Virus record (IMG/VR): IMGVR_UViG_3300032050_000122
DNA: 64,000 bases
Strand: one strand, 5' to 3'
From: a virus
Shown here: positions 3,015 to 45,512 of the stretch, in pieces
Layout: every line of letters starts with the position of its first letter
How positions within the stretch are numbered: the stretch's first letter is position 1
Program-made: the position numbers and the translations under genes
The notes under the pieces: generated by a model
The model's database searches: none
What the model was told of the DNA's origin: nothing
Seen by the model: only the letters and a program-made list of their open reading frames with translations

Positions 3015-4094
3015 TCACTGTTGAAACTTTCGGTGGTACCGTGCTTCCTTCGGGATACCGTCATCGGTGAGTTCACGGTAACGGAACGTAACCTGACTCC
3101 CCCTTGGAAACAATGGATTGTTAATCCAGTCAGGAACTTCTTTCTCTGGGTTGCAAATTGCCCACTCTTTGGCATAGACGATATTCTTGCCTTTGAGTTC
3201 ACGCTCGGCATCTGTGAACCCTGACAATTCGAGTCTTTTCCCGTTGAAGTTCGTAATCAGGGCACCCATCTTGCCGAGCAGTTTGCTGCCCTTATCGGTC
3301 TCTCGGCCAGTTGTGTAGCCCGTAACGATTGCTTCCGCATCATTGAAGTCTTTCACCTTCAAGATGTTGTAGCTACGTTTCGGTTCCCAACTTGCCGATG
3401 GCTTGCGAAGCATGATGCCTTCGCCGCCCTGGTCAACAACAGAATCCAACAACCGATTCAACTCGGTTACTGCGGCTGGCGTCGAAAACGGCATACGCCA
3501 CTGTGTATGTACTTGAAGATTTTCGGTGATCTTCAAGTTGCTACACAGATAGTTATGAACTTCTTCATACGATGACAACGGCGGCATGATTCCTGTGAAG
3601 TTTGCTTGCCACCAAGGGTAGCAACCTCGCAGAAACACCTTGTACGCTTGTACCGAGATGTCGCCATCTTGGAACAAAGAGTATGGCCAAGGCATGTCAA
3701 ACACCATGTATCTGACATTTCGCCAGCCCGAACCAGGGTTATGATCCTTGACCGTGGCTTGATTCGTCTGGAAGTTTCCACGACCAGACCACAATTCGCC
3801 ATCCAAACAAAAGTTTGGAAGTTGGTCAAGAAACCAATCCGGAGCGTAGATCACGTTACCATAACGTGACCACAGACCCGTGGCAATCACTTCGTTGACA
3901 CGAATGTGATCCTTCTCGGTGTTGGCATACGGAACTTGAGACGCGGGTTTACCACGACTTGCTCCGCCGTCCCAAAAAGCCCGCATACCATCTAATTTTT
4001 CGCTAGCAAACCAGCCAGCCGGCGAGTGCTTCTTCGGATCGTAAACATGAGCAAGTTGAACGTACTCACGTTTCAAAAGATTACGACTGGCCAT
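3015..4094 (-). CDS. ATP-dependent DNA ligase (phage T7/Chlorella-virus-type nucleotidyltransferase)
   Basis: 359 aa with motif I KLDGMRA (KxDGxR), motif III FCLDGELW, motif IV EGIMLRK and motif V LKVK. Confidence 0.8.
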   Translation of the reverse strand: MASRNLLKREYVQLAHVYDPKKHSPAGWFASEKLDGMRAFWDGGASRGKPASQVPYANTEKDHIRVNEVIATGLWSRYGNVIYAPDWFLDQLPNFCLDGELWSGRGNFQTNQATVKDHNPGSGWRNVRYMVFDMPWPYSLFQDGDISVQAYKVFLRGCYPWWQANFTGIMPPLSSYEEVHNYLCSNLKITENLQVHTQWRMPFSTPAAVTELNRLLDSVVDQGGEGIMLRKPSASWEPKRSYNILKVKDFNDAEAIVTGYTTGRETDKGSKLLGKMGALITNFNGKRLELSGFTDAERELKGKNIVYAKEWAICNPEKEVPDWINNPLFPRGSQVTFRYRELTDDGIPKEARYHRKFQQ

Positions 4095-4269
4095 ATTTTG
4101 CTCTCTCGGGGTGGTTGAATGTGAAGCGTTCGTGATCGCCGATGATGATCTCGCGTTCCATTCGTTTGCTCATCGTTTCGATTGTGACCCTTGACTCTTT
4201 GACTGGTGGCTCGGTGCAGCCAGCAGCGTGATCCAGACGCATTTGATGAATCCGTTCGTACTTGGTCAT
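4081..4269 (-). CDS. hypothetical small protein
   Basis: 62 aa ORF overlapping the ligase start by 14 nt. Confidence 0.3.
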   Translation of the reverse strand: MTKYERIHQMRLDHAAGCTEPPVKESRVTIETMSKRMEREIIIGDHERFTFNHPERAKYGQS

Positions 4270-4332
4270 TTGTCCAACTCCACATTGTTAAGGGTTGCAA
4301 AGTAACAATCATCAACTTTGAAATAATAACCA

Positions 4333-5154
4333 TTAGATGTTTGAAGGTTTTTCATCGGATTCCATATGCCAAGGGCAACTAAAACTGCCGGCGTGCTTGT
4401 GGCCACCGCCGCCGAATCGGGTACAGATTTCGCTAACGTCCATGCCGTTGGGATCGGAACGCAGCGAGTAGCAGAAACGCTTCTCTTTGTCCTTGTTCCA
4501 CCAGACGATTGCGAAAGGTTTGCCCTTTGCAAGTTCGCCGCCGATTTCCGATTGCAGGACGGTGGAGTTCACCATCGGAACTTTGTGACCCTCAAACTCG
4601 ATCTCGGTTGCCTGACTTACAGCTTTTTGAATCAGTTTCTCTTGGTACCGAAGGATTGATAAGCCTTGCGATGTACATAGAGTATGCCCTAGCTTGGTCA
4701 GCATTTCGCAATTGGCCATGCTAAAAGCATAAGACTGGATGCACGCATCGATCTCTTTGGACCGTGGAAGTTCCCATTTCCACAAATCACGGTCTTGGAT
4801 ATAAGGCAGAATCCACGGTGCTTCAAGGGTTGGATTGTAATATTCCCATGTGAGCATAGCACCGCACTTGTCAACGTCGTAGACATACTCAAACGGGTAC
4901 GACGGTACGAACCCTTCCATTTTGATTCTGGAAGATTTGTGGTGGTCGAGGATTTTGAGGGATTTATATTTGGCAGATTCCAGAGTCGCCCGATCAGGAC
5001 AGTAATCGACGCAAATTACGTCGTGGCCATCCAATGAGGGAATGCTGGTTTGGTAATAGACTGGAACCAAATCTGCTGTCAAATTGTGGAGATGAGCGTA
5101 ATAGGCCGCGAAGATTCCGTCGGCACAATTAGCATGGTAAAGGATGGTCGTCAT
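4333..5154 (-). CDS. DHH/DHHA1 family phosphoesterase (NrnA/RecJ-like)
   Basis: 273 aa with YHANCADG (motif I), ILDHHKS (DHH motif III) and the C-terminal DHHA1 signature FGGGGHKHA. Confidence 0.8.
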   Translation of the reverse strand: MTTILYHANCADGIFAAYYAHLHNLTADLVPVYYQTSIPSLDGHDVICVDYCPDRATLESAKYKSLKILDHHKSSRIKMEGFVPSYPFEYVYDVDKCGAMLTWEYYNPTLEAPWILPYIQDRDLWKWELPRSKEIDACIQSYAFSMANCEMLTKLGHTLCTSQGLSILRYQEKLIQKAVSQATEIEFEGHKVPMVNSTVLQSEIGGELAKGKPFAIVWWNKDKEKRFCYSLRSDPNGMDVSEICTRFGGGGHKHAGSFSCPWHMESDEKPSNI

Positions 5155-5164
5155 TTCTTTGTCC

Positions 5165-5590
5165 TTAAGAAAGTTGAACTTCGATGATCTTATCGCTGTT
5201 GTTCAGCGTGGCCGGAAACGCTTTTCCGACATGCTTTGGAAAGTTTTTCGGGGCACGAGTACAGGTAATCAGTAGACCACCTTTGTACGCCGGAGCCATT
5301 CGATACGCTGCATCCGAGGCAGCAGTCGTTGCCGGTCTTTGAAAGCCGATCTTTAATCGAGTCTTATCAAAGAAAACATTCACCGCTTCTTTCGGCTTGT
5401 AACCAAAAATCTCGGCAAAAGCCTTATTGCATTGTAGTCCATTTTTGAGAATGGCAACCATCGGCCGCTCTGCCCAAGCTGCTCCATACTTTGCAACACC
5501 TGATTGGAAGTTTCTCGAATTCGAACTTTGCATTTCCCAAGCCATGATGCGTTCCTTTAAGTAAAAGGTTACTCTTATACCGCCGGCCAA
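5165..5590 (-). CDS. hypothetical protein
   Basis: 141 aa ORF, no recognisable motif. Confidence 0.4.
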   Translation of the reverse strand: MAGGIRVTFYLKERIMAWEMQSSNSRNFQSGVAKYGAAWAERPMVAILKNGLQCNKAFAEIFGYKPKEAVNVFFDKTRLKIGFQRPATTAASDAAYRMAPAYKGGLLITCTRAPKNFPKHVGKAFPATLNNSDKIIEVQLS

Positions 5591-5616
5591 ACTGGACGGC
5601 GGTCAAAGGGGAACCC

Positions 5617-7053
5617 TTACATATACTCGCGTGCCCGAATGAAGTCGATGATTGCCTCGCTCCATCCACTGATGTGGACGAACTTGTTGTAGCCGATTCC
5701 ATTCTCATTGCAACTGATGTTGATGAGATAGTTGGAATCACCGAAGGCGTTTGCCTGAGACGGATCGAGCTTGCTGCCAGGAGTCTGGCAATCTTGCTCG
5801 TCCGTGATGACGATGACGCGGTCAGCCGTTCGCTGTTCCTGATAGACATAGTCCATGACTTGTTTCAGGAAGATGCCACCAGTACCGATTTGGTGCTGGA
5901 GTTGCAACTCACTGAACAGTCGAGACAACTCGAAACCACGCCGAGCCGGAATCTGCATCGTTGCATGACGCCGTGCCGAATCGCTACCGGCGGTAGCATA
6001 GATGACCGGATTTTCGGCGATCTCTTTGACGAGAATCGCCAACGCACCAGCGGCATCAAGACGCGACAGGTCGCTCTTGGCCGAGACCTTGCCCTGAGTC
6101 ATGGACCCCGAGGAATCCACGATCAGAACCGTCTTGCCGGGGAGCTTCGGAATCGTTTGGAGACAGCGAAGCATCATGTCTTCGATCATGTTCTGCCATG
6201 CCGGAACCGCACGGTAAGCCGCGATGAACCGGAAGGGAAGCACACGACCCAAATCAACATGCTTCGAGTACTCGACGACGAGTTCCTTGGCCACGCCGCT
6301 CTGTTCCATGTTGCGGAGATTCCGCAGGAACGCCAACGCACCGAGCTTGCCCTCTCTCATCAGACGCGTGAACGTCTCGCACTTGTCGGCTCCCGCAGAA
6401 AGCTCAACTTCCCAAGTATCGGGAGTCTTGAGAGTGCCTTCTGCCAACTTGTGGTAGAGGGAATCGGTGTGTCGTAGCAGGGACTTGGAGTGACCGTCTT
6501 TGTAAGTACGGTGCTTGATGGTGGCGGGGCCAACGTCAGCCGGTTTCGGATGACAGAGGAACATGGCGTCCCGGAGTTTGACCGCTCCATCACGATTATA
6601 CTTAGCCAAGGCGTACTCATTGAAGTTCCCGAAGGCTTTCGCCAGTCCTTTCTTGACTTGGGCAGAAATCGGGCACTTGCCATCTTTCCAGTAGATGGCA
6701 AGGAATTCTGCCAACTCGTCAGCACGCTGGATGATTTCCGGGAGCAGGTCTTTCACCAGTCCCTTGTGGCTATCCAGCCGAGCCATTTCACGTGCAATCA
6801 ACAACGGTACGTGCCGCAGTTTCTGATTCGTTCGGGCGTCGATCGCCATGTTCGCGACCTTCTGCGGATCGACCTGTTTGATGAGGCTCGCAATCCGCTT
6901 GGCGATCTTCTCGCCAGTTTCGTAGAACGTGTCTTCCCACAACATGCACGCCATCACGGATCGCCGAAGTTGTTCTTCGGGACTGACGTTGCTGGCGATT
7001 GCTCCGCCGTGGGTACGCTTGACAAGCTTGGGTGCCTTCACATTCGTCTTCAT
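5617..7053 (-). CDS. rsr: Ro60/Rsr ortholog (TROVE domain plus vWA domain)
   Basis: TROVE-like N-terminal region (HGGAIASN..., LRDAMFLCHPKP resembling the Ro60 LRLSHpKP motif) and C-terminal vWA domain with the Ro60-type MIDAS LIVDSSGSM. Start chosen at MKTNVKAP because of the strong RBS (AGGAGAgcatcATG); the ORF track extends to 7170. Confidence 0.75.
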   Translation of the reverse strand: MKTNVKAPKLVKRTHGGAIASNVSPEEQLRRSVMACMLWEDTFYETGEKIAKRIASLIKQVDPQKVANMAIDARTNQKLRHVPLLIAREMARLDSHKGLVKDLLPEIIQRADELAEFLAIYWKDGKCPISAQVKKGLAKAFGNFNEYALAKYNRDGAVKLRDAMFLCHPKPADVGPATIKHRTYKDGHSKSLLRHTDSLYHKLAEGTLKTPDTWEVELSAGADKCETFTRLMREGKLGALAFLRNLRNMEQSGVAKELVVEYSKHVDLGRVLPFRFIAAYRAVPAWQNMIEDMMLRCLQTIPKLPGKTVLIVDSSGSMTQGKVSAKSDLSRLDAAGALAILVKEIAENPVIYATAGSDSARRHATMQIPARRGFELSRLFSELQLQHQIGTGGIFLKQVMDYVYQEQRTADRVIVITDEQDCQTPGSKLDPSQANAFGDSNYLINISCNENGIGYNKFVHISGWSEAIIDFIRAREYM

Positions 7054-7241
7054 GATGCTCTCCTGGGATTGACAAAGCCACAGTTCATTGCGAAGCTCAT
7101 GACTTTTATAGTCCATGCTCCACAATTCCTGACCCATGACACTTATGGGTCTAATCATCGCTGCTTCCATTGTCTTATTCTTGTTTCTGCCGGAGTAATT
7201 GCTACTCGACGGCTACCACCGAATTTCTTTGTTAATTCAAT

Positions 7242-7282
7242 CTTCGGCTTGGGTCCACCGATGTAGAACCCAACGCCGAAGA
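7242..7282 (-). other. 13-bp bulged GC-rich hairpin with loop ...ATCGGTGG... between rsr and the upstream gene
   Basis: Minus-strand CTTCGGCGTTGGGT-tctacatcggtgg-ACCCAAGCCGAAG; no U-tract. The loop carries the CGGTGG core of the repeated box A. Confidence 0.4.
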
Positions 7283-7323
7283 TTGCAAAGGCACCTGTCA
7301 CATACAATGCTTCCGGGTGCATG

Positions 7324-7866
7324 TCAACTCCGTGGCAAATGCCAGACTGGGATGTTCGGTGGCAAGTAGCCCGAATAAAAAGCTTCTGCCCCGATCAAAT
7401 CACGCAGGAGTTTTAATGATTGGCGTCTCACTGTGACATAGTAGTAATCACACTGAGCGTCACGAACCGTGTCCCACACTTGGTACAACTGGTCCGTCTC
7501 AACGATTGCTTCACGTATCACATCCGCGTGGAACAAGTCTACTTCCAGCCTCTTGTTCAAGTCATTGCGAAATGACCGATTCAATGCCAGAAAGTCATTC
7601 AGTGTTTTACGCGTTGGATACCGGTTACACTCACCCAATTGTGGGTAAGACAGAAACTCTTCATTACGGCCCCTCAGCATCTCAAGATCAGTGTTTGGGT
7701 CTTGAGTGAGTAGGAAGGAATGTTCCCGCGGATCAAGAATCTCGCTATCAAGAGCGAGAGCCAGAATCGTTGGCCGTAATACCTCGATCCATGCAACGTC
7801 AACAGGTGGCGAGTCTTTCGAAGCCGTCAATAAGGCGGCTGCTAAGACAATCTCACAAGTGAACAC
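7324..7866 (-). CDS. hypothetical protein
   Basis: ORF track gives 7324..7908, which runs into tRNA-His. An in-frame GTG at 7866 is preceded by GGAGGG at a 7-nt spacing, giving about 180 aa. Confidence 0.45.
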   Translation of the reverse strand: MFTCEIVLAAALLTASKDSPPVDVAWIEVLRPTILALALDSEILDPREHSFLLTQDPNTDLEMLRGRNEEFLSYPQLGECNRYPTRKTLNDFLALNRSFRNDLNKRLEVDLFHADVIREAIVETDQLYQVWDTVRDAQCDYYYVTVRRQSLKLLRDLIGAEAFYSGYLPPNIPVWHLPRS

Positions 7867-7881
7867 ATAGATACCCTCCAG

Positions 7882-7958
7882 GGTGGTCGACGGGATTTGA
7901 ACCCGCAACCGCCGGAATCACAATCCGGTGCTCTGCCAGTTGAGCTACGACCAACATG
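7882..7958 (-). tRNA. tRNA-His (anticodon GTG)
   Basis: D-arm GCUC-AACUGGCA-GAGC, anticodon loop UUGUGAU, T-arm GCGGG-UUCAAAU-CCCGU, extra 5' G (G-1) opposite C73; one acceptor mismatch. Confidence 0.7.
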
Positions 7959-7993
7959 AATTTGCGGGAACAAGCGGAACGGCTGCTGCCCTT

Positions 7994-8044
7994 TCGGGCG
8001 ATCAAACCATCTTTGAAGTAACCGTTTCCTAACGCCACGCAAAC
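7994..8044 (-). promoter_or_regulatory. repeat unit copy 1 (box A 8015-8044 plus box-B-like 7994-8006) upstream of tRNA-His
   Basis: Minus strand GCGTGGCGTTaggaaaCGGTTACTTC then GGTTTGATCGCCCGAAAG; member of the repeat family at 8.0-11.6 kb. Confidence 0.5.
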
Positions 8045-8159
8045 ATTAAAGTGGGGAACAATCGCTGTAGTTAGCCGGTATCGAGCCGGCACCCTTGCGG
8101 GTTTCAAACCAAGAAGTAGCTACAACTATCACCACCACAAGAAGCATTAGAGGGATAAT

Positions 8160-8280
8160 AATCGACAACAGGGGTTGGTCTTTTGCTCTACCCACTGAGC
8201 TACAATCCATCCCGAGGGACTTCATGGCGGGATTCGAACCCACGACCTAAAGAAGTAACTGTTATCTACGCCACTCTAAT
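8160..8280 (-). ncRNA. candidate YrlA-like ncRNA: box A, then T-arm, hairpin and D-arm (permuted tRNA-like module), then closing stem and box-B-like
   Basis: Minus strand GAGTGGCGTAGATAACAGTTACTTC (8276-8252); T-arm GUGGG-UUCGAAU-CCCGC (8243-8227); hairpin GUCC-cucg-GGAU; GGAUUGUA plus D-arm GCUC-AGUGGGUA-GAGC (8200-8185); CUGUU (8171-8167) pairs with the AACAG of box A. No anticodon arm and no matching acceptor 3' strand. Confidence 0.45.
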
Positions 8281-8364
8281 AAGGTGCCGACGGCAGGATT
8301 CAAAATGGAGAGCCTGCGAAACAGGATCGTATCACCTGTGGTTAACCGCACAGATTACCACCCC

Positions 8365-8387
8365 GCTAAAGGGTGTGGCCACACCCC
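8365..8387 (-). terminator. possible weak terminator hairpin after the kinase gene
   Basis: Perfect palindrome GGGTGTGGCCACACCC followed by only UUU on the minus strand. Confidence 0.3.
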
Positions 8388-8409
8388 GTCCGCGTTCGTC
8401 GGCCTGATT

Positions 8410-8847
8410 TCATGCTAAGAACACTTCTTGATTCCAATAGGAAGGAACAATTTGTTCTTGAAGGTTCTTATGCATTGCCAAAATTGTGTTGACCGGTACC
8501 TTGTGCGTATTTCTACGCATTGCACGACTAACCGGACACATGTGGTACTTGATCACGTAATCGTGGCCTAATGCTTGAGCGATTCTGACATATGGAGCTA
8601 GTTCCATGAGAGTTGTGTTTGTGTTATCCACAATAAAAAGTGGACAGCGTTTCTCAACGAAGACCGCCGAGATGTAACAACGCAAACACCAATCATGAGC
8701 CTCACCCGCACGCTTAGGGTCGTACTGGTAAATACCATTGACTGTGTGAAAGTCATCAGCCGAGAAGATTTCACAATCTTCACCAGCATAGTTCTTCACA
8801 TAAGTTGATTTACCTGACCCAGGCAATCCTCGCATGATCCAGATCAT
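8410..8847 (-). CDS. P-loop kinase (polynucleotide kinase-like, AAA_33 type)
   Basis: 145 aa starting MIWIMRGLPGSGKSTYVKNY (Walker A) and resembling the T4 Pnk kinase domain N-terminus; RBS AAGGAAAG precedes the ATG. Confidence 0.65.
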   Translation of the reverse strand: MIWIMRGLPGSGKSTYVKNYAGEDCEIFSADDFHTVNGIYQYDPKRAGEAHDWCLRCYISAVFVEKRCPLFIVDNTNTTLMELAPYVRIAQALGHDYVIKYHMCPVSRAMRRNTHKVPVNTILAMHKNLQEQIVPSYWNQEVFLA

Positions 8848-8934
8848 GGTCTTTCCTTAAAAAGTTAATTGGTCCAGAGCCTTCACGGTAACACACCGTG
8901 GCCTGCCCAGCTTAAGCACTCTGGACCAAAAGGT

Positions 8935-9000
8935 ATCGGGGATTAAATCGGTCACAGCTTTTTCTAAGCATGAAGTAACCGTGACCAACGCCACCGAAAG
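8935..9000 (-). promoter_or_regulatory. repeat unit copy 3 (box B 8935-8948, hairpin, box A 8972-9000) upstream of the kinase gene
   Basis: Minus strand CTTTCGGTGGCGTTGGTCACGGTTACTTC ... GCTGTGACCG ATTTAATCCCCGAT; the GGTCAC/GTGACC stem covaries with other copies. Confidence 0.55.
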
Positions 9001-9004
9001 TTTG

Positions 9005-9265
9005 TTACTTGGGCTTCCACTCTTCGGGAATCTTTTCCTTGTCGTTGAAGATGTTGCCCATTCGAATCTTCCAGTCTTCACCTTCGGGAAGACCAGCATG
9101 GCGATACATGGTATCACCCACCATACGCCAAACTCCTGCCTGGGATTCCGGCGGCACGTAAGCCGCTCGTTGCATGATTTGTTTCAAGTCGTTGGCCAAC
9201 GCGACTTCCGTCGGCGGCAGAACTTCTTGAATGACAAACTTCACCAATCGATCAAGGTCTCGCAT
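9005..9265 (-). CDS. hypothetical protein
   Basis: 86 aa; RBS AAGGAAAAG upstream of ATG at 9265. Confidence 0.5.
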   Translation of the reverse strand: MRDLDRLVKFVIQEVLPPTEVALANDLKQIMQRAAYVPPESQAGVWRMVGDTMYRHAGLPEGEDWKIRMGNIFNDKEKIPEEWKPK

Positions 9266-9284
9266 GATTCTTTTCCTTAATAAG

Positions 9285-9402
9285 AGCGGGGATTAAACGA
9301 AATCAGTATTTAGTCCCACACTTGCGGGTTTACGGCCCGTAGTTGTGGGGCTTCTCCGGTCATGGTGGGGAAGTAACTGATCTCAAACGCCACCGCAAAA
9401 AG
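9285..9402 (-). promoter_or_regulatory. repeat unit copy 4 (box A 9370-9402, long structured loop, box B 9285-9298)
   Basis: Minus strand GCGGTGGCGTTTGAGATCAGTTACTTC ... ACTGAT ... GTTTAATCCCCGCTC; ATCAGT/ACTGAT stem. Confidence 0.5.
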
Positions 9403-9403
9403 A

Positions 9404-9682
9404 TCACTTCGTGGGAATCGGCTCAAGCGGACTCGTCGCCAAATGAATGGCAACGTGGTGAATCTTGTTGGTTTCTTTGTCAATGACCCACGACTCCTGC
9501 TCCTGGTAGAACCGATTCAGTTCGAAGATCGCTTCGATCGATTCGAGCCACCACCAAGAGGTTTCGCCTTCGTCGGCAACACCGATCAACCAGCGTGCAT
9601 CGGCGGGCTTACGCCCCACGAATCCTGACACGCGGGAAATTCCTTTGTAAACGACGTTGTCGTATTTCGTTTGCATGTTCAT
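9404..9682 (-). CDS. hypothetical protein
   Basis: Start moved to MNMQTKYD (ATG at 9682) because the longer ORF would run through the upstream repeat unit; RBS AAGGAAatgaacATG. Confidence 0.5.
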   Translation of the reverse strand: MNMQTKYDNVVYKGISRVSGFVGRKPADARWLIGVADEGETSWWWLESIEAIFELNRFYQEQESWVIDKETNKIHHVAIHLATSPLEPIPTK

Positions 9683-9697
9683 TTCCTTAAAAGAAGT

Positions 9698-9763
9698 ATC
9701 GGGGATTAAACGCTTAGGGTTGGCACTTTTAACAGAAGTATCCCTTAGCATACGCCACCGATG
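9698..9763 (-). promoter_or_regulatory. repeat unit copy 5 (box A 9735-9763, hairpin GCTAAGGG/CCCTAAGC, box B 9698-9711)
   Basis: Minus strand CATCGGTGGCGTATGCTAAGGGATACTTC tgttaaaagtgccaa CCCTAAGC GTTTAATCCCCGAT, then RBS and ATG. Confidence 0.55.
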
Positions 9764-9912
9764 ATTGTGAGCCTGGACTGCCATTCATTTATTTAACGCC
9801 CCGGTCCTGGCACCTGGTGCGTCTAACTCTGACGTTCCCATGTAACGCCACGCGAGTGTTGGGTTTTGCTAACCATAAGTGACCACACCAACAGGCCACC
9901 CTTCGATTCCTC

Positions 9913-10161
9913 CTAGAGTTGACCAGCGAGGTACAACAAAGCCGCCTTGAACGCCGCTCGATTGCTGCCGGGCGTCTTGGGAATTTCGTCCATCTTGTTT
10001 GTCATCTCTTTGTAGAGACGGGTCTGTTCGACATCCATCTCTTCGTGAGTCGCGTTCGGTTTCGATTCATACAACTGAAAGAACGTGACGATGGCACTGA
10101 GCGTTTTCAACTGCTGAGCCATCTCTAGGGACAGCGTCAGAATCAAAAGTTCCTTGAGCAT
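9913..10161 (-). CDS. hypothetical protein
   Basis: 82 aa; RBS AAGGAAAtgtctcATG. Confidence 0.5.
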   Translation of the reverse strand: MLKELLILTLSLEMAQQLKTLSAIVTFFQLYESKPNATHEEMDVEQTRLYKEMTNKMDEIPKTPGSNRAAFKAALLYLAGQL

Positions 10162-10423: not shown

Positions 10424-10492
10424 ATCGGGGATTGTTCGCTACGGCTTTTCGTGCAAAGGTAGAAGTAACCGTAGCAATCGCCACCGAAAAAG
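10424..10492 (-). promoter_or_regulatory. repeat unit copy 6 (box A 10462-10492, hairpin GCTACGG/CCGTAGC, box B 10424-10437)
   Basis: Minus strand CTTTTTCGGTGGCGATTGCTACGGTTACTTC ... CCGTAGC GAACAATCCCCGAT. Confidence 0.55.
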
Positions 10493-11124: not shown

Positions 11125-11153
11125 GAAACTTTCCTTAAGTAAAGGGACCAGTG

Positions 11154-11221
11154 GGGGCCCGAGGATTTGAACCTCATCTCTGAGTTAAACTCAGGCTCTG
11201 CCAAGTTAAGCTAAAGCCCCA
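11154..11221 (-). tRNA. tRNA with atypical anticodon arm (possible anticodon UUA; or a 5-nt loop)
   Basis: D-arm GCUU-AACUUGGC-AGAGC and T-arm UGAGG-UUCAAAU-CCUCG. Anticodon arm CUGA-GUUUAAC-UCAG gives UUA with a 4-bp stem; the alternative is a 5-bp stem with loop UUUAA. Acceptor has a mismatch and GU pairs. Confidence 0.45.
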
Positions 11222-11224
11222 AAT

Positions 11225-11293
11225 CGGGGAACAAACGATTACGGGGTCACATCAACCAAAAGAAGTACCCGCAATCAAACGCCACCGAAAGCA
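11225..11293 (-). promoter_or_regulatory. repeat unit copy 7 (box A 11264-11293, hairpin GATTGCGGG/CCCCGTAATC, box B 11225-11238) upstream of the UUA tRNA
   Basis: Minus strand CTTTCGGTGGCGTTTGATTGCGGGTACTTC ... CCCCGTAATC GTTTGTTCCCCGAT. Confidence 0.5.
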
Positions 11294-11366
11294 CGACCGG
11301 GTGGAATCGAACCACCAACCTACGGTTTTGGAGACCGTCGCTCTGCCAATTGAGCTACTAGCCGCG
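11294..11366 (-). tRNA. tRNA-Trp (anticodon CCA), acceptor stem does not pair as read
   Basis: D-arm GCUC-AAUUGGCA-GAGC, anticodon arm ACGGU-CUCCAAA-ACCGU, T-arm GGUGG-UUCGAUU-CCACC. The 5' CGGCUAG and 3' CGGUCGU are not complementary, so this may be a pseudo-tRNA or I have misread the boundaries. Confidence 0.5.
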
Positions 11367-11374
11367 TTGTGTCC

Positions 11375-11492
11375 GGGATTAAGTCGAATCAGTATAGCAT
11401 CCTACCATTAGACGACGAAGGCAAGCCCTCGGTGGGATTCGAACCCACATCTCTTCTTTGACATAGAAGTAACCGATTCTAAACGCCACGGA
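11375..11492 (-). ncRNA. candidate YrlA-like ncRNA: box A, then T-arm, closed acceptor-like hairpin and D-arm, then stem and box B
   Basis: Minus strand CCGTGGCGTTTAGAATCGGTTACTTC (11492-11468); T-arm GUGGG-UUCGAAU-CCCAC (11450-11434); hairpin CGAGG-gcuugc-CUUCG; UC; D-arm GUCU-AAUGGU-AGGA (11415-11402); GAUUC pairs with the GAAUC of box A; TTAATCCCGG (11386-11375). Confidence 0.45.
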
Positions 11493-11567
11493 ACTAAGAA
11501 CCAGGGATTAACTGAGTCGGTGCCGCTGTTGCCAAATCTTGCGGCCTCAACACCCTTGCGGATGCTG

Positions 11568-11637
11568 ACAGGATTCGAACCTGCAATTACTTATGAAGTA
11601 TCCGATTCAATCGCCACTGGTAAGTTGTCAGACGATC
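11568..11637 (-). ncRNA. tRNA-like element: acceptor-like stem, box A in place of the D and anticodon arms, and a T-arm
   Basis: Minus strand CUGACAAcuuacCAGUGGCGAUUGAAUCGGAUACUUCauaaguaauuGCAGG-UUCGAAU-CCUGUCAG; box-B-like TTAATCCCTGG at 11514-11503. Confidence 0.35.
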
Positions 11638-19870: not shown

Positions 19871-19944
19871 GATACACCTTGTATGGCGGTCCCCAGGCCA
19901 TTCTCCCTCGCACGGGAGAATTTGTGCGAAGACCCAGGGACCAT

Positions 19945-20015
19945 TAGACTCAGAAGGATTCGAACCCTCTCTAACGGGTCCAACGCCCGTTGTGCTACCG
20001 TTACACTATGAGTCA
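19945..20015 (-). tRNA. tRNA-Gln (anticodon TTG), noncanonical G33
   Basis: D-arm GUGU-AACGGUA-GCAC, anticodon arm ACGGG-CGUUGGA-CCCGU, T-arm GAGGG-UUCGAAU-CCUUC, acceptor GACUCA/UGAGUC with U1-U72 mispair. Confidence 0.5.
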
Positions 20016-20101
20016 ACGTACCCGCTTGGGTGGTCTGCTCTGCGTTCGCAGTCGTTCCACGCACCCTAGACGCTACGGCACTCTGCCAAGCGGGCTTACA
20101 A

Positions 20102-20365
20102 TCACTTCTTGATCAGAGCCAGGATGGCATTGATCACGGTTTGCAAATCCAACTTCTGGCCAGAGAACAGACTGAGAACAAGCGGCAAGAGAACCGCCAA
20201 AATCGTCACCAATCCGACGCCCTGAGCTTGTGCCTGCTTGACGGCTTCACTGAGCTTTGTCTCGGCGTCGCGACCGTACTGGTACGCAACGCTCTTCAAA
20301 AGCATTCGCAGCGTTCCCTGTTGATTTGCACCGACGACACCTGCAAGGTGTTGAGCTTCGATCAT
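20102..20365 (-). CDS. small membrane protein
   Basis: 87 aa with a hydrophobic segment (VGLVTILAVLLPLVLSLF). Confidence 0.4.
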   Translation of the reverse strand: MIEAQHLAGVVGANQQGTLRMLLKSVAYQYGRDAETKLSEAVKQAQAQGVGLVTILAVLLPLVLSLFSGQKLDLQTVINAILALIKK

Positions 20366-21525
20366 TTATCCTTCTCCAAGTAAGTTGCTCCGACACACTT
20401 GAGACACAAGCGTCCCAAGTGAATGTCAGTGCGTTCAACAATCGGTTTGACCACGCAGCCCTCACGATAGTGCTGTGCAATCAAAGATTGACCGTCGCTC
20501 AAGTTCACAACCAGATCGAAGCTGTAATCGTGAACGCCAAGGAATGGCACCCACGGTACATCCGGTGCCGCGTCGCGAGCTTCTTGAGCATTCAGCCAGC
20601 GGCCGTCGTCAAGAATGTCGAACACAGCAATCGAGACTGGCTTGTCTTGAGTGTGGCCGTACTTCAAGGTCTGCACGTTGCCGTAGACTTCACCGTACAA
20701 AATCTTTCCCGGATTATCACGGCACCACTTCTCAATTTCCGGTTCATGGCTCAACGCCGTCCACCACATGTTCCGCGACTTTGTCGGAGAATGTAGGCGA
20801 TCGAAAATCTGTTGACAGCGTTCTTCATCAGGGATGTTTGTGTCCTTGTTCAGAACACGTTCCCGCAACCAATTCATTGTGATATGGTCATAGGTCGGGA
20901 ACTCTTTCTTCCACTCGGTCCGAGAACCACAGTGCATCACACCGTCTTGATAGACGTACCGTGCGTTAGCTCCGTGAATCTTCTCGGTGATCCAAACCTT
21001 CTCGCCAGGAATCAACAAGTGATGATACTTGCGGAAGGCATCGAGATCGTACTTCGGACTGTTGAGGCTTGGAGCCTTGGCAACTTCACCGCCAAGAATC
21101 AAGCCGTTTGCTGCTCGCTGCTCACCTGGCATCGGCGGTTCGTAGTGAGTGACGCCCAACTGCTGAGCAACGTCTTGACCCAAGACGCTACCTTCCGGTG
21201 CCGGAATCATCAGACCAAACGAAACAACACCACGCAGCTTCATAGCCTTGACGCGGTGTGTACCATCAGCCTTGGCTTTTGGCATGAGGAAGTCGAACTC
21301 TTTCCGGTTTGTGTCCACCACCGAATCAGGCGGAAGATACGCACCAAGAGCGACACCTTGCCAGTCTTGGGTTCGGACGATACAGGTGTATCCGCCGAAG
21401 ACTCGAACGATACTGAGCGAATCAGCGTTTGGGTGCTTGGTCAATTCGATTGGCACAATCTCCACCTGATGTGTGCTATTTGACATGGTGCTTACCTCGT
21501 TTGTTGAGTTCCCTGATTTCATCAT
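20362..21525 (-). CDS. ATP-dependent RNA ligase (Rnl2/Rnl5-DraRnl type, KxHG)
   Basis: 387 aa; nucleotidyltransferase motif I ITEKIHGANARYVY (KIHG as in T4 Rnl2) preceded by an N-terminal OB-like domain. Confidence 0.65.
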   Translation of the reverse strand: MMKSGNSTNEVSTMSNSTHQVEIVPIELTKHPNADSLSIVRVFGGYTCIVRTQDWQGVALGAYLPPDSVVDTNRKEFDFLMPKAKADGTHRVKAMKLRGVVSFGLMIPAPEGSVLGQDVAQQLGVTHYEPPMPGEQRAANGLILGGEVAKAPSLNSPKYDLDAFRKYHHLLIPGEKVWITEKIHGANARYVYQDGVMHCGSRTEWKKEFPTYDHITMNWLRERVLNKDTNIPDEERCQQIFDRLHSPTKSRNMWWTALSHEPEIEKWCRDNPGKILYGEVYGNVQTLKYGHTQDKPVSIAVFDILDDGRWLNAQEARDAAPDVPWVPFLGVHDYSFDLVVNLSDGQSLIAQHYREGCVVKPIVERTDIHLGRLCLKCVGATYLEKDK

Positions 21526-34940: not shown

Positions 34941-35015
34941 GTGTCACCCTTAAGAGATGGGCGGGAGGGAATAGTAATCGCCGCTCAACAACCACTAACA
35001 TCTCAACCGCCCAAA

Positions 35016-35072
35016 CTGACTTGCTGGGACTCGAACCCAGTGCCCTCGCTAGCGAGGTATCCAATCAAGTCA
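35016..35072 (-). ncRNA. tRNA-like minihelix (acceptor stem, hairpin, T-arm; no D or anticodon arm)
   Basis: Minus strand UGACUUG-auuggaua-CCUCGCuaGCGAGG-gca-CUGGG-UUCGAGU-CCCAG-CAAGUCA-g; perfect 7-bp acceptor and canonical T-arm, 57 nt. Confidence 0.35.
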
Positions 35073-35104
35073 ACACAACTGACTACCCAGTTGTCAAGGA
35101 TCAA

Positions 35105-43660: not shown

Positions 43661-43734
43661 GGCGGCATAGCTCAATTGGATAGAGCGTCGGTCTACGAAG
43701 CCGAAGGTTGGGAGTTCGAATCTCTCTGTCGCTA
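43661..43734 (+). tRNA. tRNA-Arg (anticodon ACG)
   Basis: Acceptor GGCGGCA/UGUCGCU, D-arm GCUC-AAUUGGAUA-GAGC, anticodon arm UCGGU-CUACGAA-GCCGA, T-arm GGGAG-UUCGAAU-CUCUC. Confidence 0.75.
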
Positions 43735-43843
43735 ATGTTGATTCGCGTCAGGATCAACAACACGCACTTGGTGCGGTCTCTGTAACTGGGCTTACATAAG
43801 CAGGCTTACCAGAGCTATGCAAGACTCCTAACGGAGTAGTCCG

Positions 43844-44209
43844 ATGGCAATCACAATCACCGAGATCAATATTCGGAAGCCCCAATATCTTGATTCTCGG
43901 CTCCTGGCGTTTGTTACTGTAGTCTTCGATAACTGCTTCGCAATCACGGACCTACGGCTATTGCAGCTTAAAGACGGTCCTTTCCTGGCGATGCCTTCGA
44001 AGAAAGCATCTACACCATGTCAGCATTGCAGACGTAAGAATACGTTTGATTGCCGATACTGCGGTAAGTGCGGCAAACTCTTGGAGTTCAAAGCGGAAGA
44101 GCATTTCGACGTAGCTTTTCCAATCAACAACGAGTTCCGACAATTTATGTTGCAGTCCATTCTTGAGAAATACAAGAATGAAACTGCCAACGAAGCTGGT
44201 GCCAAGTAA
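43844..44209 (+). CDS. SpoVG-like protein with zinc-ribbon insertion
   Basis: ITDLRLLQLKDGPFLAMPSKKAS ... HFDVAFPINNEFRQFM matches SpoVG (NGLFVAMPSKR ... DIAHPIN), interrupted by CQHC...CRYCGKCGK. Confidence 0.55.
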   Translation: MAITITEINIRKPQYLDSRLLAFVTVVFDNCFAITDLRLLQLKDGPFLAMPSKKASTPCQHCRRKNTFDCRYCGKCGKLLEFKAEEHFDVAFPINNEFRQFMLQSILEKYKNETANEAGAK

Positions 44210-44247
44210 GAGGAAATCAGGGCACCCATGACGAATGGAATCGTGAC

Positions 44248-44319
44248 GCTAGCATAGCTCAATGGTAGAGCAGCTGTTTTGTAAGCAGCCGGTTGGGGGT
44301 TCAAGTCCCTCTGCTAGCT
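44248..44319 (+). tRNA. tRNA-Thr (anticodon TGT)
   Basis: Perfect acceptor GCUAGCA/UGCUAGC, D-arm GCUC-AAUGGU-AGAGC, anticodon loop UUUGUAA, T-arm GGGGG-UUCAAGU-CCCUC. Confidence 0.8.
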
Positions 44320-44331
44320 CTGGAGGTATCT

Positions 44332-45506: not shown

Positions 45507-45512
45507 TGGTTA

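What the first reader, a model, noticed from the sequence alone, without database searches (positions are those of the whole stretch)
7990..8290. Permuted tRNA-like module (T-arm, hairpin, D-arm) about 1 kb from a Ro60/Rsr gene: candidate phage Y RNA-like (YrlA-type) RNA
Between tRNA-His and the kinase gene, the minus strand carries, 5' to 3': repeat box A, a canonical T-arm (GUGGG-UUCGAAU-CCCGC), a short hairpin, GGAUUGUA plus a canonical D-arm (GCUCAGUGGGUAGAGC), and then CUGUU, which pairs back to the AACAG inside box A. There is no anticodon arm and no matching acceptor 3' strand, so it is not a tRNA gene. As I recall it, a tRNA-like domain whose termini sit where the anticodon loop would be, ordered T-arm, closed acceptor, D-arm, is the architecture reported for bacterial YrlA Y-RNA-like RNAs that are encoded next to rsr and bound by Rsr (Ro60). 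An intact Ro60 ortholog sits at 5617-7053 on the same strand.
Basis: partly seen in the sequence, partly recalled or inferred. Interest (0 to 1): 0.85.

Follow-up and report, generated by a model that had tools for sequence, protein, structure and literature searches.

The report
Phage Y RNA array beside Ro60
The flagged sequence is a real tRNA-mimicking "Y RNA" gene about 1 kb upstream of a phage Ro60 gene, and it is one of ten related Ro60-type RNA modules in a row; RNAs of this kind are already known from bacteria and a few phages, so this is a solid new example rather than a new kind of thing.

Summary
On the minus strand at 8278-8148 there is, in order, a 5' stem strand, a T arm, a closed hairpin, a D arm and a 3' stem strand. 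It is not a tRNA gene. An intact Ro60 gene (7053-5617) lies downstream on the same strand.

The YrlA reading is supported. Rfam YrlA matches end to end (36 bits, E 7.7e-6) but stays below the curated cut-off of 69. A covariance model built only from Ro60-adjacent RNAs of 26 other viral contigs ranks this element first in the whole 64 kb window (87.4 bits, E 3.4e-20).

"Box A" is not an isolated repeat. It is the 5' strand of a conserved bulged stem carrying GGCG(U/A)(U/A), a variant of the published Ro60 motif GNCGAA(N)G. This stem recurs ten times between 11621 and 7962, with strong compensatory covariation.

Three modules carry tRNA-like parts. The others are short hairpins, comparable to YrlB. 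They alternate with tRNA genes and small conserved ORFs.

The same stem sits upstream of Ro60 in about 40 other viral contigs, including Caulobacter phage CcrColossus, which has eight modules.

Verdict: a new member of a known kind. Expression and Ro60 binding are inferred, not shown.

The parts
8148..8278 (-). Module E8, the finding itself: a YrlA-type Y RNA candidate of 131 nt. It has the Ro60-type stem, a T arm, an acceptor-like hairpin and a D arm, and no V arm.
   Evidence: R2 gives 87.4 bits, E 3.4e-20, model positions 1-132. Rfam RF02553 gives 36 bits, E 7.7e-6. Sequence read.
8266..8272 (-). GGCGUAG in E8, a one-base variant of the published Rsr/Ro60 recognition motif GNCGAAN0-1G. It spans the end of the basal helix and the internal loop.
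   Evidence: Sequence. The motif definition is from PMC4201824. The same alignment position reads GGCGAAG in relatives, for example the E8 ortholog L013:9663.
8273..8281 (-). Basal helix 5' strand of E8 (UUAUUAGAG) plus the bulged U at 8273. It pairs with 8145-8152; GG at 8272-8271 pairs with CC at 8154-8153.
   Evidence: Fold. There are 8 contiguous pairs. Compensatory changes are seen across the ten copies and across 56 relatives.
8259..8266 (-). Second ('anticodon-stem-like') helix of E8, 5' strand GAUAACAG. It pairs with CUGUUGUC at 8171-8164.
   Evidence: 8 of 8 positions pair. This helix has a different sequence in every copy and stays complementary.
8252..8258 (-). UUACUUC box. UUAC corresponds to the conserved YUAY that begins the V loop of YrlA RNAs; CUUC forms the 5' strand of the V hairpin in modules that have one.
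   Evidence: The TACTTC core (with the preceding base variable) is present in all ten copies and is nearly invariant in relatives. YUAY is described in PMC4201824.
8227..8243 (-). T arm of E8: GUGGG-UUCGAAU-CCCGC.
   Evidence: The T stem covaries in the orthologs: AUGGG/CCCAU in L012 and UUGGG/CCCAA in L013. In A6 this helix is 99.2% paired.
8203..8226 (-). Closed acceptor-like (AS) hairpin region of E8. It is irregular here: CAU/AUG, a bulge, then GUCC-CUCG-GGAU.
   Evidence: Sequence. The L012 ortholog has a tidy CGUUC-UUCG-GGACG hairpin and L013 has AGCAAC-GCAA-GUUGCU. The hairpin is therefore kept in structure but not in sequence.
8185..8202 (-). U8-A9 followed by the D arm of E8: GCUC-AGUGGGUA-GAGC.
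   Evidence: G15 with C48.
8050..8139 (-). Module E9: the same stem (GGUGAUAG variant) with a GCAA hairpin and a T-arm-like hairpin (GCCGG-CUCGAUA-CCGGC).
   Evidence: R2 32.3 bits, R1 27.4 bits, fold.
7962..8042 (-). Module E10: the same stem with a GAAA hairpin. It ends about 6 nt before tRNA-His.
   Evidence: R2 34.8 bits, R1 29.6 bits, fold.
7881..7954 (-). tRNA-His(GUG), directly 3' of the E8-E9-E10 array.
   Evidence: ARAGORN. Rfam tRNA 59.8 bits.
8935..8998 (-). Module E7: a minimal hairpin-type module. It starts about 10 nt after the stop codon of the 86-aa ORF.
   Evidence: R1 51 bits, R2 35.1 bits, fold z -3.46.
9285..9397 (-). Module E6: the same stem with a 63-nt insert that is not tRNA-like.
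   Evidence: R2 31 bits, fold z -3.03.
9698..9762 (-). Module E5: minimal, followed by an AAGGAAA ribosome-binding site and an ATG at 9676.
   Evidence: R1 67.1 bits, R2 34.5 bits. It is 98.5% identical to L012:6944-7009.
10424..10488 (-). Module E4: minimal, with the GGCGAUUG variant.
   Evidence: R1 43.1 bits, R2 31.5 bits.
11223..11289 (-). Module E3: minimal, wedged between tRNA-Trp and a tRNA-like gene.
   Evidence: R1 68 bits, R2 34.4 bits.
11371..11493 (-). Module E2: a second full YrlA-type module with a V hairpin (CUUCU-AUGUCAA-AGAAG), a T arm, an AS hairpin and a D-like arm. It has A15 with U48.
   Evidence: R2 57.2 bits, E 1.4e-12, R1 60.3 bits. Rfam YrlA does not reach E 5 here.
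11500..11621 (-). Module E1: the stem, a T arm (GCAGG-UUCGAAU-CCUGU), a GCAA hairpin and a degenerate D-like hairpin.
   Evidence: R2 46.2 bits, E 8e-10, fold z -3.07.
11291..11365 (-). tRNA-Trp(CCA), between E2 and E3.
5617..7053 (-). Ro60/Rsr ortholog, 478 aa counted from the ATG at 7053, which has an AGGAG ribosome-binding site.
   Evidence: Pfam TROVE E 5.7e-14. The best solved structure is the phiLo phage Ro60 (9L5Y/9KOP), E 1.5e-26, over nearly the full length. It is 93% identical to L012 from residue 1.

Best explanation
Module E8 (8278-8148, minus strand) is a phage gene for a YrlA-type Y RNA.

Its two ends form a bulged basal helix (NNNG-U-GG / CC-CNNN). This is followed by an internal loop that carries GGCGUAG, a variant of the Ro60 recognition motif GNCGAA(N)G. 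Next comes a second helix of 8-11 bp that corresponds to a tRNA anticodon stem. Together these form the Ro60-binding module.

The interior folds as a circularly permuted tRNA body. A T arm and a closed acceptor-like hairpin stack on each other, and a D arm docks on the T loop. There is no anticodon loop and no free CCA end.

The RNA is most likely cut out of a polycistronic precursor that also carries modules E9 and E10 and tRNA-His. RNase P cleavage at the tRNA would set the downstream end. The RNA is then bound by the phage Ro60 encoded about 1 kb downstream.

By analogy with bacterial Ro60/Y RNA/PNPase complexes and with phage phiLo, the stem would hold or gate Ro60, while the tRNA-like elbow recruits a host factor such as PNPase or a tRNA-recognising enzyme. 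This would redirect RNA decay or repair during infection.

E8 is one of ten modules that share the same stem. E2 (and partly E1) are also tRNA-like. E3, E4, E5 and E7 are minimal hairpins, analogous to YrlB and Yrn2.

Shown here: the sequence architecture, the covariation, the linkage to Ro60 and the family membership. Inferred: transcription, processing, Ro60 binding and the effector.
For: 1. Architecture. The T arm, AS hairpin, U8-A9, D arm and both stem strands are all present in the sequence. The nucleotides for the tRNA tertiary pairs are present, including G15:C48. E2 has A15:U48, and the family shows G:C, A:U and U:A at this pair.

2. Rfam YrlA (RF02553) aligns over positions 1-114 at 36 bits, E 7.7e-6. 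Phage loci with Ro60 score in the same sub-threshold range: CcrColossus, where Y RNA-like RNAs are reported, gives 42.3, 30.5 and 29.9 bits, and Xanthomonas phage Tenjo gives 55.9 and 38.8.

3. Independent model. R2 was built from 26 Ro60-adjacent elements of other viral contigs, with no window sequence. It scores E8 at 87.4 bits (E 3.4e-20), the best hit in 64 kb. E2 scores 57.2, E1 46.2 and the other seven modules 31-35.

4. Real RNA structure.
- Among the ten copies, 75 of 80 cells of the variable helix pair, against 4.78 of 8 pairs per helix for non-cognate strand combinations.
- The basal helix pairs in 40 of 40 cells, with compensatory changes in 3 of 4 columns.
- In the MAFFT alignment A6, 93.8% of cells pair against 69.4% in shuffles, 18 of 23 pairs change on both sides, the covariation score is 0.667 against 0.186, and slid registers reach at most 50%.
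- For 56 stem modules from 33 sources, 97.1% of cells pair and 14 of 15 pairs change on both sides.
- That set holds 62 G-U cells, which would be mismatches on the opposite strand.

5. Linkage to Ro60.
- All 83 R1 hits in Ro60 loci lie on the Ro60 strand.
- Pattern-defined modules number 88 on the Ro60 strand against 5 on the other strand. Of the 88, 84 lie within 5 kb upstream of Ro60.
- R2 hits 41 of 42 sources.
- Loci found through the RNA pattern alone (L001, L002, L007) carry Ro60 immediately downstream.
- Nothing elsewhere in the 64 kb window matches the stem-only model R1: the best other hit is 13 bits, E 0.26.

6. Motifs match the literature. GGCGAAG in relatives and GGCGUAG here correspond to GNCGAAN0-1G. 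UUAC corresponds to YUAY at the start of the V loop.

7. Precedent. Y RNAs are processed from a common precursor with a tRNA (D. radiodurans Yrn2-tRNA-Asp-Yrn1) or with each other (M. smegmatis YrlA/YrlB upstream of rsr). Each studied species has one tRNA-like and one hairpin-type Y RNA (PMC4201824). Phage phiLo Ro60 binds two upstream Y-like RNAs and host PNPase (PMC12135203).

8. The window's Ro60 is closest to the phiLo Ro60 structure. RNA-repair-type genes lie nearby: a PNK-like kinase, a DHH phosphoesterase and an RNA ligase.
Against: - There are no expression, end-mapping or binding data of any kind.
- The Rfam score is about half the gathering threshold.
- The GNCGAA motif is off by one base in E8 (GGCGUAG).
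- E8's acceptor-like hairpin is irregular, and the linker to the D arm is about 7 nt instead of 2, unlike the tidy L012 ortholog. E8 also lacks the V hairpin that most relatives have.
- The free-energy z-score of E8 folded alone is only -1.41.
- Several modules (E4-E7) sit between protein-coding cistrons, within about 10 nt of a stop codon and about 20 nt of a ribosome-binding site. They could therefore act in cis on mRNAs rather than as free small RNAs.
- The sequences used to build R2 were picked with a pattern that required the stem boxes, so only the T, AS and D part of its score is fully independent.
- The E-values from my models are rough, because calibration was short.
Confidence: 0.8

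Rival explanations
1. The modules are cis-acting parts of long transcripts rather than free Y RNAs. Under this reading they are intercistronic Ro60-binding or nuclease-processing/stability elements, or autoregulatory operators in the Ro60 leader. They would mark the tRNA/mRNA operon for processing or protection.
For: - E4, E5, E6 and E7 lie between conserved small ORFs. They start about 10 nt after a stop codon and end about 20 nt before an AAGGAAA ribosome-binding site and ATG.
- Linkers between E8, E9, E10 and tRNA-His are only 3-6 nt.
- In many relatives the last, minimal module ends 60-190 nt before the Ro60 start codon.
- The scan found no excess of promoter-like or terminator-like sites.
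Against: - Known Y RNAs are also made from polycistronic precursors and then released (PMC4201824), so the tight packing does not tell the two models apart.
- E8, E2 and E1 carry a complete effector-type tRNA-like domain, which a simple processing site would not need.
- In most relatives the modules form pure head-to-tail arrays with no ORFs between them.
Confidence: 0.13
2. The repeats work at the DNA level, as phage promoters or as recombination boxes that bound exchangeable gene cassettes (like the PeSL elements of T4-like phages). The RNA folds would then be incidental.
For: - The kinase gene (8847-8410) and the ORF at 9676-9404 are absent from the 93%-Ro60 relative L012.
- The flanking module E5 is nevertheless 98.5% identical, and the module order is otherwise kept.
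- A short CTT-rich stretch precedes most copies.
Against: - Two helices covary, with different sequences in every copy. A promoter or recombination box would conserve sequence, not complementarity.
- The 62 G-U cells make the structure specific to one strand.
- The copies are confined to the Ro60 neighbourhood rather than spread along 64 kb of same-strand genes.
- The association with Ro60 holds across Ro60 proteins that are only 38% identical.
Confidence: 0.04
3. E8 is a decayed tRNA gene or a tandem-tRNA artefact: the T arm of one former tRNA followed by the D arm of the next, with no function of its own.
For: - The T and D arms are close to tRNA consensus, and the phage carries at least 12 tRNA genes.
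- The same R2 model gives a false hit of 36.8 bits on the real tRNA-Ala/tRNA-Asn junction at 46195-46315. Chen et al. warned about this kind of artefact.
Against: - There is no acceptor 5' strand or anticodon arm on either side, and ARAGORN calls nothing there.
- The arms are enclosed by the conserved, covarying Ro60-type stem.
- Orthologs in L012 and L013 keep the T stem through compensatory changes and keep a closed hairpin between T and D.
- The same layout recurs upstream of Ro60 in dozens of contigs.
Confidence: 0.02

Closest known systems
YrlA (Y RNA-like A) of Salmonella Typhimurium, M. smegmatis and more than 250 bacteria (Chen et al. 2014, PMC4201824; crystal structure 6CU1, bioRxiv 10.1101/312249; Rfam RF02553)
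   Same: The order of parts is the same: stem, (V), T arm, closed acceptor-like hairpin, D arm, stem. Also shared are tRNA-like T and D loops with the tertiary-pair nucleotides, YUAY at the start of the V region, a GNCGAA-type motif near the 5' end, and a location on the Ro60 strand within 4 kb of Ro60.
   Different: - The Rfam score is 36 bits against a cut-off of 69.
- The motif reads GGCGUAG.
- The Ro60-type stem has its own signature: a bulged U, GG/CC, a 3' box UU(G/A)UUCCC, and UUACUUC. In this signature both strands are recognisable. In Salmonella and M. smegmatis only the 5' strand is.
- E8 has no V hairpin and an irregular acceptor-like hairpin.
[quoted passage not shown] 2014, as cited in PMC12135203)
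   Same: The genomic logic is the same. My R2 model finds eight head-to-tail modules at L055:3805-4996, immediately upstream of the CcrColossus Ro60 CDS. Three of these regions also match Rfam YrlA below threshold.
   Different: - The window phage is unrelated at the DNA level (no megablast match), and its Ro60 is about 41% identical to that of CcrColossus.
- Its ten modules are spread over 3.7 kb and alternate with tRNA genes and small ORFs, instead of forming one compact array.
- I could not see how many modules per phage the 2014 supplement listed, because it is not held.
Hairpin-type second Y RNAs: Salmonella and M. smegmatis YrlB, D. radiodurans Yrn2
   Same: The minimal modules E3, E4, E5 and E7 (about 65 nt) keep the Ro60-type stem and end in a short, pyrimidine-rich loop region, with no T/D domain. 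They sit between a YrlA-type RNA and Ro60 or tRNAs, as YrlB and Yrn2 do. Those RNAs are processed from a common precursor.
   Different: There are at least four such modules here rather than one. Several of them lie directly between protein-coding genes. I could not test sequence similarity to YrlB or Yrn2, because their sequences were not at hand.
Yrl1 and Yrl2 of Thermus phage phiLo with phiRo60 (PMC12135203; PDB 9KOP, 9L5Y)
   Same: Phage Ro60 has Y-like RNAs encoded just upstream, and a CGAA-type motif lies in a bulged stem. phiRo60 is the closest solved relative of the window's Ro60. The paper proposes recruitment of host PNPase.
   Different: The phiLo Yrls are described as one- or two-hairpin RNAs with no tRNA-like domain (0 occurrences of 'tRNA-like'). 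I did not compare them at the sequence level.

Membership tests
YrlA-type Y RNA (Chen et al. 2014 definition) | Encoded on the same strand as a Ro60/Rsr ortholog and within 4 kb of it | tested here: met
   The 3' end of E8 is at 8148 and the Ro60 start is at 7053, both on the minus strand. The distance is about 1.1 kb.
YrlA-type Y RNA (Chen et al. 2014 definition) | T stem-loop resembling a tRNA T arm (5-bp stem, UUCGAAU-type loop) | tested here: met
   GUGGG-UUCGAAU-CCCGC at 8243-8227. The stem covaries in the orthologs and in A6.
YrlA-type Y RNA (Chen et al. 2014 definition) | D stem-loop resembling a tRNA D arm, preceded by U8 | tested here: met
   UA-GCUC-AGUGGGUA-GAGC at 8202-8185.
YrlA-type Y RNA (Chen et al. 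2014 definition) | A closed stem-loop (AS) between the T and D arms, conserved in structure but not in sequence | tested here: met
   The AS region is at 8226-8203. It is irregular in E8 (3 bp, a bulge, 4 bp, a CUCG loop). The orthologs have clean hairpins of unrelated sequence: UUCG in L012 and GCAA in L013.
YrlA-type Y RNA (Chen et al. 2014 definition) | Nucleotides for tRNA tertiary interactions, including a covarying Levitt pair 15:48 | tested here: met
   E8 has U8, A14, G15:C48, G18, G19, U54, U55, C56 and A58. Across the family the 15:48 pair is G:C in about 20 cases, A:U in 3 (including E2) and U:A in 1, with 2 exceptions.
YrlA-type Y RNA (Chen et al. 2014 definition) | GNCGAAN0-1G motif near the 5' end (the presumed Rsr contact) | tested here: inconclusive
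   E8 reads GGCGUAG, one base off. The other copies read GGCGAUUG, GGCGUUUG or GGUGAUAG. At the same alignment position many relatives read GGCGAAG exactly, including the E8 ortholog L013:9663.
YrlA-type Y RNA (Chen et al. 2014 definition) | Conserved YUAY at the start of the V region, after the 5' strand of the stem | tested here: met
   UUAC at 8258-8255. The UAC core is present in all ten copies, preceded by a pyrimidine in E8 and in most other copies.
YrlA-type Y RNA (Chen et al. 2014 definition) | Exists as a discrete RNA of about 80-130 nt bound by Rsr/Ro60, with T and D loops modified by TruB and DusA | not testable with these tools
   No transcriptome or biochemical data were available.
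Rfam RF02553 YrlA (operational threshold) | cmscan score at or above the curated gathering score of 69 bits | tested here: not met
   The score is 36.0 bits, E 7.7e-6, over the full model length. The threshold is also missed in CcrColossus (42.3 bits), in phage Tenjo (55.9 bits) and in seven IMG/VR Ro60 loci. The model therefore under-detects this phage clade. This is a property of the model, not a biological criterion.
Ro60-linked phage Y RNA family defined here (model R2, from 26 other viral contigs) | Full-length match to R2: bulged basal helix, second helix, T arm and D arm | tested here: met
   87.4 bits, E 3.4e-20, model positions 1-132, the top hit in the window. The family structure is supported by covariation.
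tRNA gene | Acceptor stem with free 5' and 3' ends, plus an anticodon arm with a 7-nt loop | tested here: not met
   ARAGORN makes no call. Rfam tRNA gives no hit over E8 at E <= 10. Only a tmRNA-model fragment matches the T arm.
Hairpin-type Y RNA (YrlB/Yrn2-like), for modules E3, E4, E5 and E7 | A long hairpin that carries the Ro60 motif, ends in a small pyrimidine-rich loop and is encoded beside a tRNA-like Y RNA | tested here: inconclusive
   The stem and motif are present. The apical region of 14-17 nt starts with UACUUCU. I made no direct comparison with YrlB or Yrn2 sequences.

The most novel reading that the evidence does not exclude
The ten-module array may be more than a set of redundant Y RNA genes. 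The Ro60-type stems could have been recruited as punctuation for a phage operon. Under this reading, stems placed between tRNA genes and small, exchangeable protein-coding cassettes would let the phage Ro60, with a host nuclease such as PNPase, bind the polycistronic transcript itself. That binding would direct its processing or protection. The repeated stems would also serve as recombination points for swapping cassettes between related phages.
Probability: 0.12. Interest if true: 0.6.

Novelty: new member of a known kind. Interest (0 to 1): 0.35.

Why it matters
This adds a well-supported YrlA-type Y RNA, and nine sibling modules, to an uncultured tailed phage of about 110 kb.

It also shows that phage Ro60 genes across many lineages, with Ro60 proteins only 38-93% identical, are preceded by arrays of 1 to about 10 modules that share one stem signature. 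The current Rfam model misses all of these at its threshold.

That gives a concrete set of RNAs and a sharply defined candidate Ro60-binding site for experiments: a bulged U, GG/CC, GGCG(A/U)AG and the 3' box UUGUUCCC. Such experiments could address why phages carry Ro60 at all, and whether it is used to hijack host RNA decay or tRNA repair.

This extends known biology. It does not overturn anything.

Tried and rejected
- A megablast of 5000-10000 against GenBank phages found no match, so no annotated close relative exists.
- Rfam at its gathering threshold returned only tRNAs, both in the window and in seven related loci. In 14 bacterial loci it returned nothing at all.
- MAFFT alignments of the trimmed or natural short modules put the 3' strands out of register. 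I therefore seeded model R1 from four modules of equal geometry and checked covariation by hand.
- R1 with default filters missed E1 and E8 because of their long inserts. R2 recovered them.
- The sigma-70 promoter and intrinsic-terminator scans showed no enrichment: 4 sites against 5.1 expected, and 9 against 8.3. This neither supports nor excludes separate transcription units.
- A scan of genome contigs with GTGGCGWAGN{7,9}GTTACTTC returned more than 120 loci, and only 3 of 120 had Ro60. This looked like a contradiction at first. However, about 400 chance matches are expected in 596 Gb, and R2 confirmed modules in only L062 and L111 among the 80 loci I searched. Of the three Ro60-bearing loci, L111 is one of those two; L160 and L163 lay outside the 80 searched.
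- The supplementary tables of Chen et al. 2014 and the 2020 Annual Review are not held. I could not check how many modules per phage had already been listed.
- PHROGs gave no function for the small ORFs between the modules.
Full report
WHAT IS THERE

I read the minus strand.
- a T arm GUGGG-UUCGAAU-CCCGC at 8243-8227;
- a hairpin region at 8226-8203;
- UA plus a D arm GCUC-AGUGGGUA-GAGC at 8202-8185;

ARAGORN finds 12 tRNAs in the window but none here. The downstream ORF carries a TROVE domain. Its best solved relative is the Ro60 of Thermus phage phiLo, E 1.5e-26 over nearly the full length.

The window is part of a tailed phage. It encodes a tape-measure protein, a DNA polymerase, a primase, a helicase, a ribonucleotide reductase and an RNA ligase. 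It has no close relative in GenBank.

FAMILY TESTS ON THE FLAGGED ELEMENT

At Rfam's curated thresholds only tRNAs are reported. With E-value reporting, the YrlA model RF02553 aligns end to end with 8265-8162 at 36 bits (cut-off 69), E 7.7e-6.

That score is not weak for a phage. In Caulobacter phage CcrColossus, where Y RNA-like RNAs have been reported (PMC12135203), the same model gives 42.3, 30.5 and 29.9 bits. In Xanthomonas phage Tenjo it gives 55.9 and 38.8 bits. Seven IMG/VR Ro60 loci give nothing at the gathering score.

I then built a model that owes nothing to the window. I took 26 elements of 125-143 nt that lie upstream of Ro60 genes in other viral contigs and aligned them with MAFFT (A6). 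RNAalifold recovered the basal helix, the second helix, the T arm and the D arm. On this unfitted alignment:
- 93.8% of cells pair, against 69.4% in shuffles;
- 18 of 23 pairs show changes on both sides;
- the covariation score is 0.667 against 0.186;
- sliding the partners by 1-3 columns drops pairing to 50% or less.

The resulting model R2 ranks the flagged element first in the whole 64 kb: 8278-8148, 87.4 bits, E 3.4e-20, model positions 1-132.

The element also has the nucleotides needed for the tRNA elbow and core: U8, A14, G15 with C48, G18, G19, U54, U55, C56 and A58. Across the family the 15:48 pair is mostly G:C, with A:U and U:A variants. Chen et al. described the same covariation for YrlA.

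Orthologs in the two nearest relatives keep the T stem through compensatory changes (GUGGG/CCCGC, AUGGG/CCCAU, UUGGG/CCCAA). They also keep a closed hairpin of unrelated sequence between the T and D arms.

"BOX A" IS THE RO60-TYPE STEM, AND THERE ARE TEN OF THEM

The pattern GTGGCGT-N9-GTTACTTC matches five times, against 0.11 expected by chance. A looser scan finds ten copies, all on the minus strand between 11621 and 7962. All ten fold in the same way:
- a basal helix NNNG-(bulged U)-GG paired with CC-CNNN;
- an internal loop with CG(U/A)(U/A) on the 5' side and UU(A/G)(A/U)U on the 3' side;
- a second helix of 8-11 bp whose sequence differs in every copy;
- the conserved UACUUC box (mostly UUACUUC), followed by a variable insert.

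In a hand-registered comparison, 75 of 80 cells of the second helix pair, against 4.78 of 8 pairs per helix for mismatched strand combinations. The basal helix pairs in 40 of 40 cells, with compensatory changes in three of four columns.

A small model of the stem alone (R1) finds nothing convincing elsewhere in the window; the best other hit is 13 bits, E 0.26. R2 detects all ten modules.

By their inserts the modules fall into classes:
- E8 (8278-8148) has T, AS and D but no V hairpin.
- E2 (11493-11371) has V, T, AS and a D-like arm, with A15:U48.
- E1 (11621-11500) has T, AS and a degenerate third hairpin.
- E9 has a GNRA hairpin and a T-like hairpin.
- E6 and E10 have other inserts.
- E3, E4, E5 and E7 are minimal hairpins of about 65 nt.

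LINK TO RO60 ELSEWHERE

Ro60 relatives (38-93% identical) occur in 43 IMG/VR loci. R1 gives 83 hits there at E < 0.01, all on the Ro60 strand and mostly within a few hundred bases upstream of the start codon.

A pattern-based count gives 88 modules on the Ro60 strand against 5 on the other strand. Of the 88, 84 lie within 5 kb upstream of Ro60 and 68 within 1.5 kb. R2 hits 41 of 42 sources.

The converse also holds. Loci recovered from the RNA pattern alone (L001, L002, L007) encode Ro60 immediately downstream.

An alignment of 56 stems from 33 sources is 97.1% paired, with 14 of 15 pairs changed on both sides. This alignment was fitted to the model, so it leans towards the structure. It contains 62 G-U cells, which fixes the strand.

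In many relatives the 5' box reads GGCGAAG. That is exactly the GNCGAAN0-1G motif which Chen et al. proposed as the Rsr contact. The UUAC of the UUACUUC box is their conserved YUAY at the start of the V loop.

Arrays are the rule:
- eight head-to-tail modules in CcrColossus (L055:3805-4996, just before the Ro60 CDS), one of which overlaps an annotated "tRNA-Gln";
- four modules in phage Tenjo;
- five to nine modules in several IMG/VR loci.

A common layout is a module of about 130 nt with a tRNA-like domain, followed by a minimal module of about 65 nt, followed by Ro60. This resembles YrlA-YrlB-rsr in M. smegmatis.

HOW IT MOST LIKELY WORKS

Shown here: the sequence architecture, the covariation, the strand, the linkage to Ro60 and the family membership.

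Inferred from the literature: the stem with its GGCG(U/A)AG motif binds the phage Ro60. This follows the X. laevis Ro60/Y RNA structure and the D. radiodurans footprints cited in PMC4201824. The tRNA-like body acts as the effector module, as in the YrlA crystal structure. A Ro60/Y RNA complex could recruit host PNPase, as proposed for phiLo.

The linkers between E8, E9, E10 and tRNA-His, and between E2, tRNA-Trp, E3 and a tRNA-like gene, are only 3-6 nt. This points to polycistronic precursors cut by tRNA-processing enzymes, as shown for Yrn2-tRNA-Asp-Yrn1 and for YrlA/YrlB.

The neighbouring genes fit an RNA repair or turnover theme, but this is context only. They include a PNK-like kinase, a DHH phosphoesterase, a DNA ligase and, further away, an RNA ligase.

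WHAT IS UNUSUAL HERE, AND THE RIVAL READINGS

In this phage and its 93% relative L012, the modules are spread over 3.7 kb. They alternate with small ORFs that are conserved at 64-88% amino-acid identity and that have regular AAGGAAA ribosome-binding sites.

Two cassettes, the kinase and the ORF at 9676-9404, are missing from L012, while the adjacent module E5 is 98.5% identical. The stems might therefore also act in cis on mRNAs, or serve as recombination points.

I rate the cis reading at about 0.13. It is not exclusive of the main explanation. I rate a purely DNA-level role at about 0.04, because two helices covary and are strand-specific. A decayed or tandem tRNA is excluded for practical purposes (0.02). 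The one clear false positive of R2 is the real tRNA-Ala/tRNA-Asn junction at 46195-46315, the artefact Chen et al. warned about.

WEAK POINTS

- There is no expression or binding evidence.
- The Rfam score is below threshold.
- The Ro60 motif in E8 is off by one base.
- E8 has an irregular acceptor-like hairpin and no V hairpin.
- E8 folded alone is not unusually stable (z -1.41).
- The seeds for R2 were chosen with a pattern that required the stem boxes.
- My model E-values are rough.

DEAD ENDS

A genome-wide pattern scan returned more than 120 bacterial loci, almost none of them with Ro60. About 400 chance matches are expected in 596 Gb. Among the 80 of these loci searched with R2, modules were confirmed in only two, one of them Ro60-bearing; two further Ro60-bearing loci were not among those searched.

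The promoter and terminator scans were uninformative. The supplementary tables that would show how many modules per phage were already listed in 2014 are not held.

VERDICT

This is a new member of a known kind. The useful addition is that the element belongs to a ten-module array, built on a stem signature that is shared by phage Ro60 loci generally and is missed by Rfam at its threshold. Interest 0.35.

Noticed in passing
window 11153-11220 (-): A tRNA-like cloverleaf (Rfam tRNA 34.7 bits) that ARAGORN does not call. Its 'anticodon' arm is CUGAG-UUUAA-CUCAG, so the loop has 5 nt or fewer and it cannot be an ordinary decoding tRNA. It sits directly 3' of module E3.
   Followed up: partly
window 8292-8403 (-): A multi-hairpin element of about 112 nt closed by GCCGACG/CGUCGGC, between the kinase gene and E8. 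Its fold z-score is -2.86, and its 3' part, adjoining E8, aligns with relative L012 at about 78%. It matches no Rfam family and neither R1 nor R2.
   Followed up: partly
window 8869-8929 (-): A long, nearly perfect 61-nt hairpin (11-bp outer stem UUGGUCCAGAG/CUCUGGACCAA, z -3.45) between module E7 and the kinase start codon.
   Followed up: no
window 8410-8847 and 9404-9676 (-), compared with L012: The gene cassettes between the Y-type modules differ between this phage and its 93%-Ro60 relative. The PNK-like kinase and a 90-aa ORF have no counterpart in L012, while the flanking module E5 is 98.5% identical. L012 also carries an extra stretch of about 900 nt and extra modules.
   Followed up: partly
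window 35000-35075 (-): An acceptor-like 8-bp stem, a hairpin and a good T arm (CUGGG-UUCGAGU-CCCAG) with no D arm, downstream of a 261-aa ORF. R2 gives only 15 bits and the fold z-score is -0.1, so this may be a tRNA remnant or a mini tRNA-like element.
   Followed up: partly
L055 (Caulobacter phage CcrColossus NC_019406) 3805-4996: Eight head-to-tail Ro60-type modules fill the 'empty' space upstream of the Ro60 CDS. The annotated tRNA-Gln (record 109217-109284) lies inside one of them (R2 84.5 bits), so it is probably the tRNA-like domain of a Y RNA.
   Followed up: partly
window 43661-46491 (+), and 977-1050, 19944-20016, 53017-53103 (-): Besides His and Trp, the phage carries ten more tRNA genes. 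These include a cluster of seven on the plus strand (Arg, Thr, Val, Gly, Ala, Asn, Pro), plus an RNA ligase at 20362-21525. This is a sizeable toolkit of tRNA and RNA-repair genes.
   Followed up: no
L062 (Terracidiphilus MAG), L111, L160, L163 (genome contigs): A few contigs binned to bacteria carry the same module type, with Ro60 41-49% identical to the window's where the sequence extends far enough. I did not determine whether these are prophages, mis-binned phage contigs or bacterial rsr loci.
   Followed up: no
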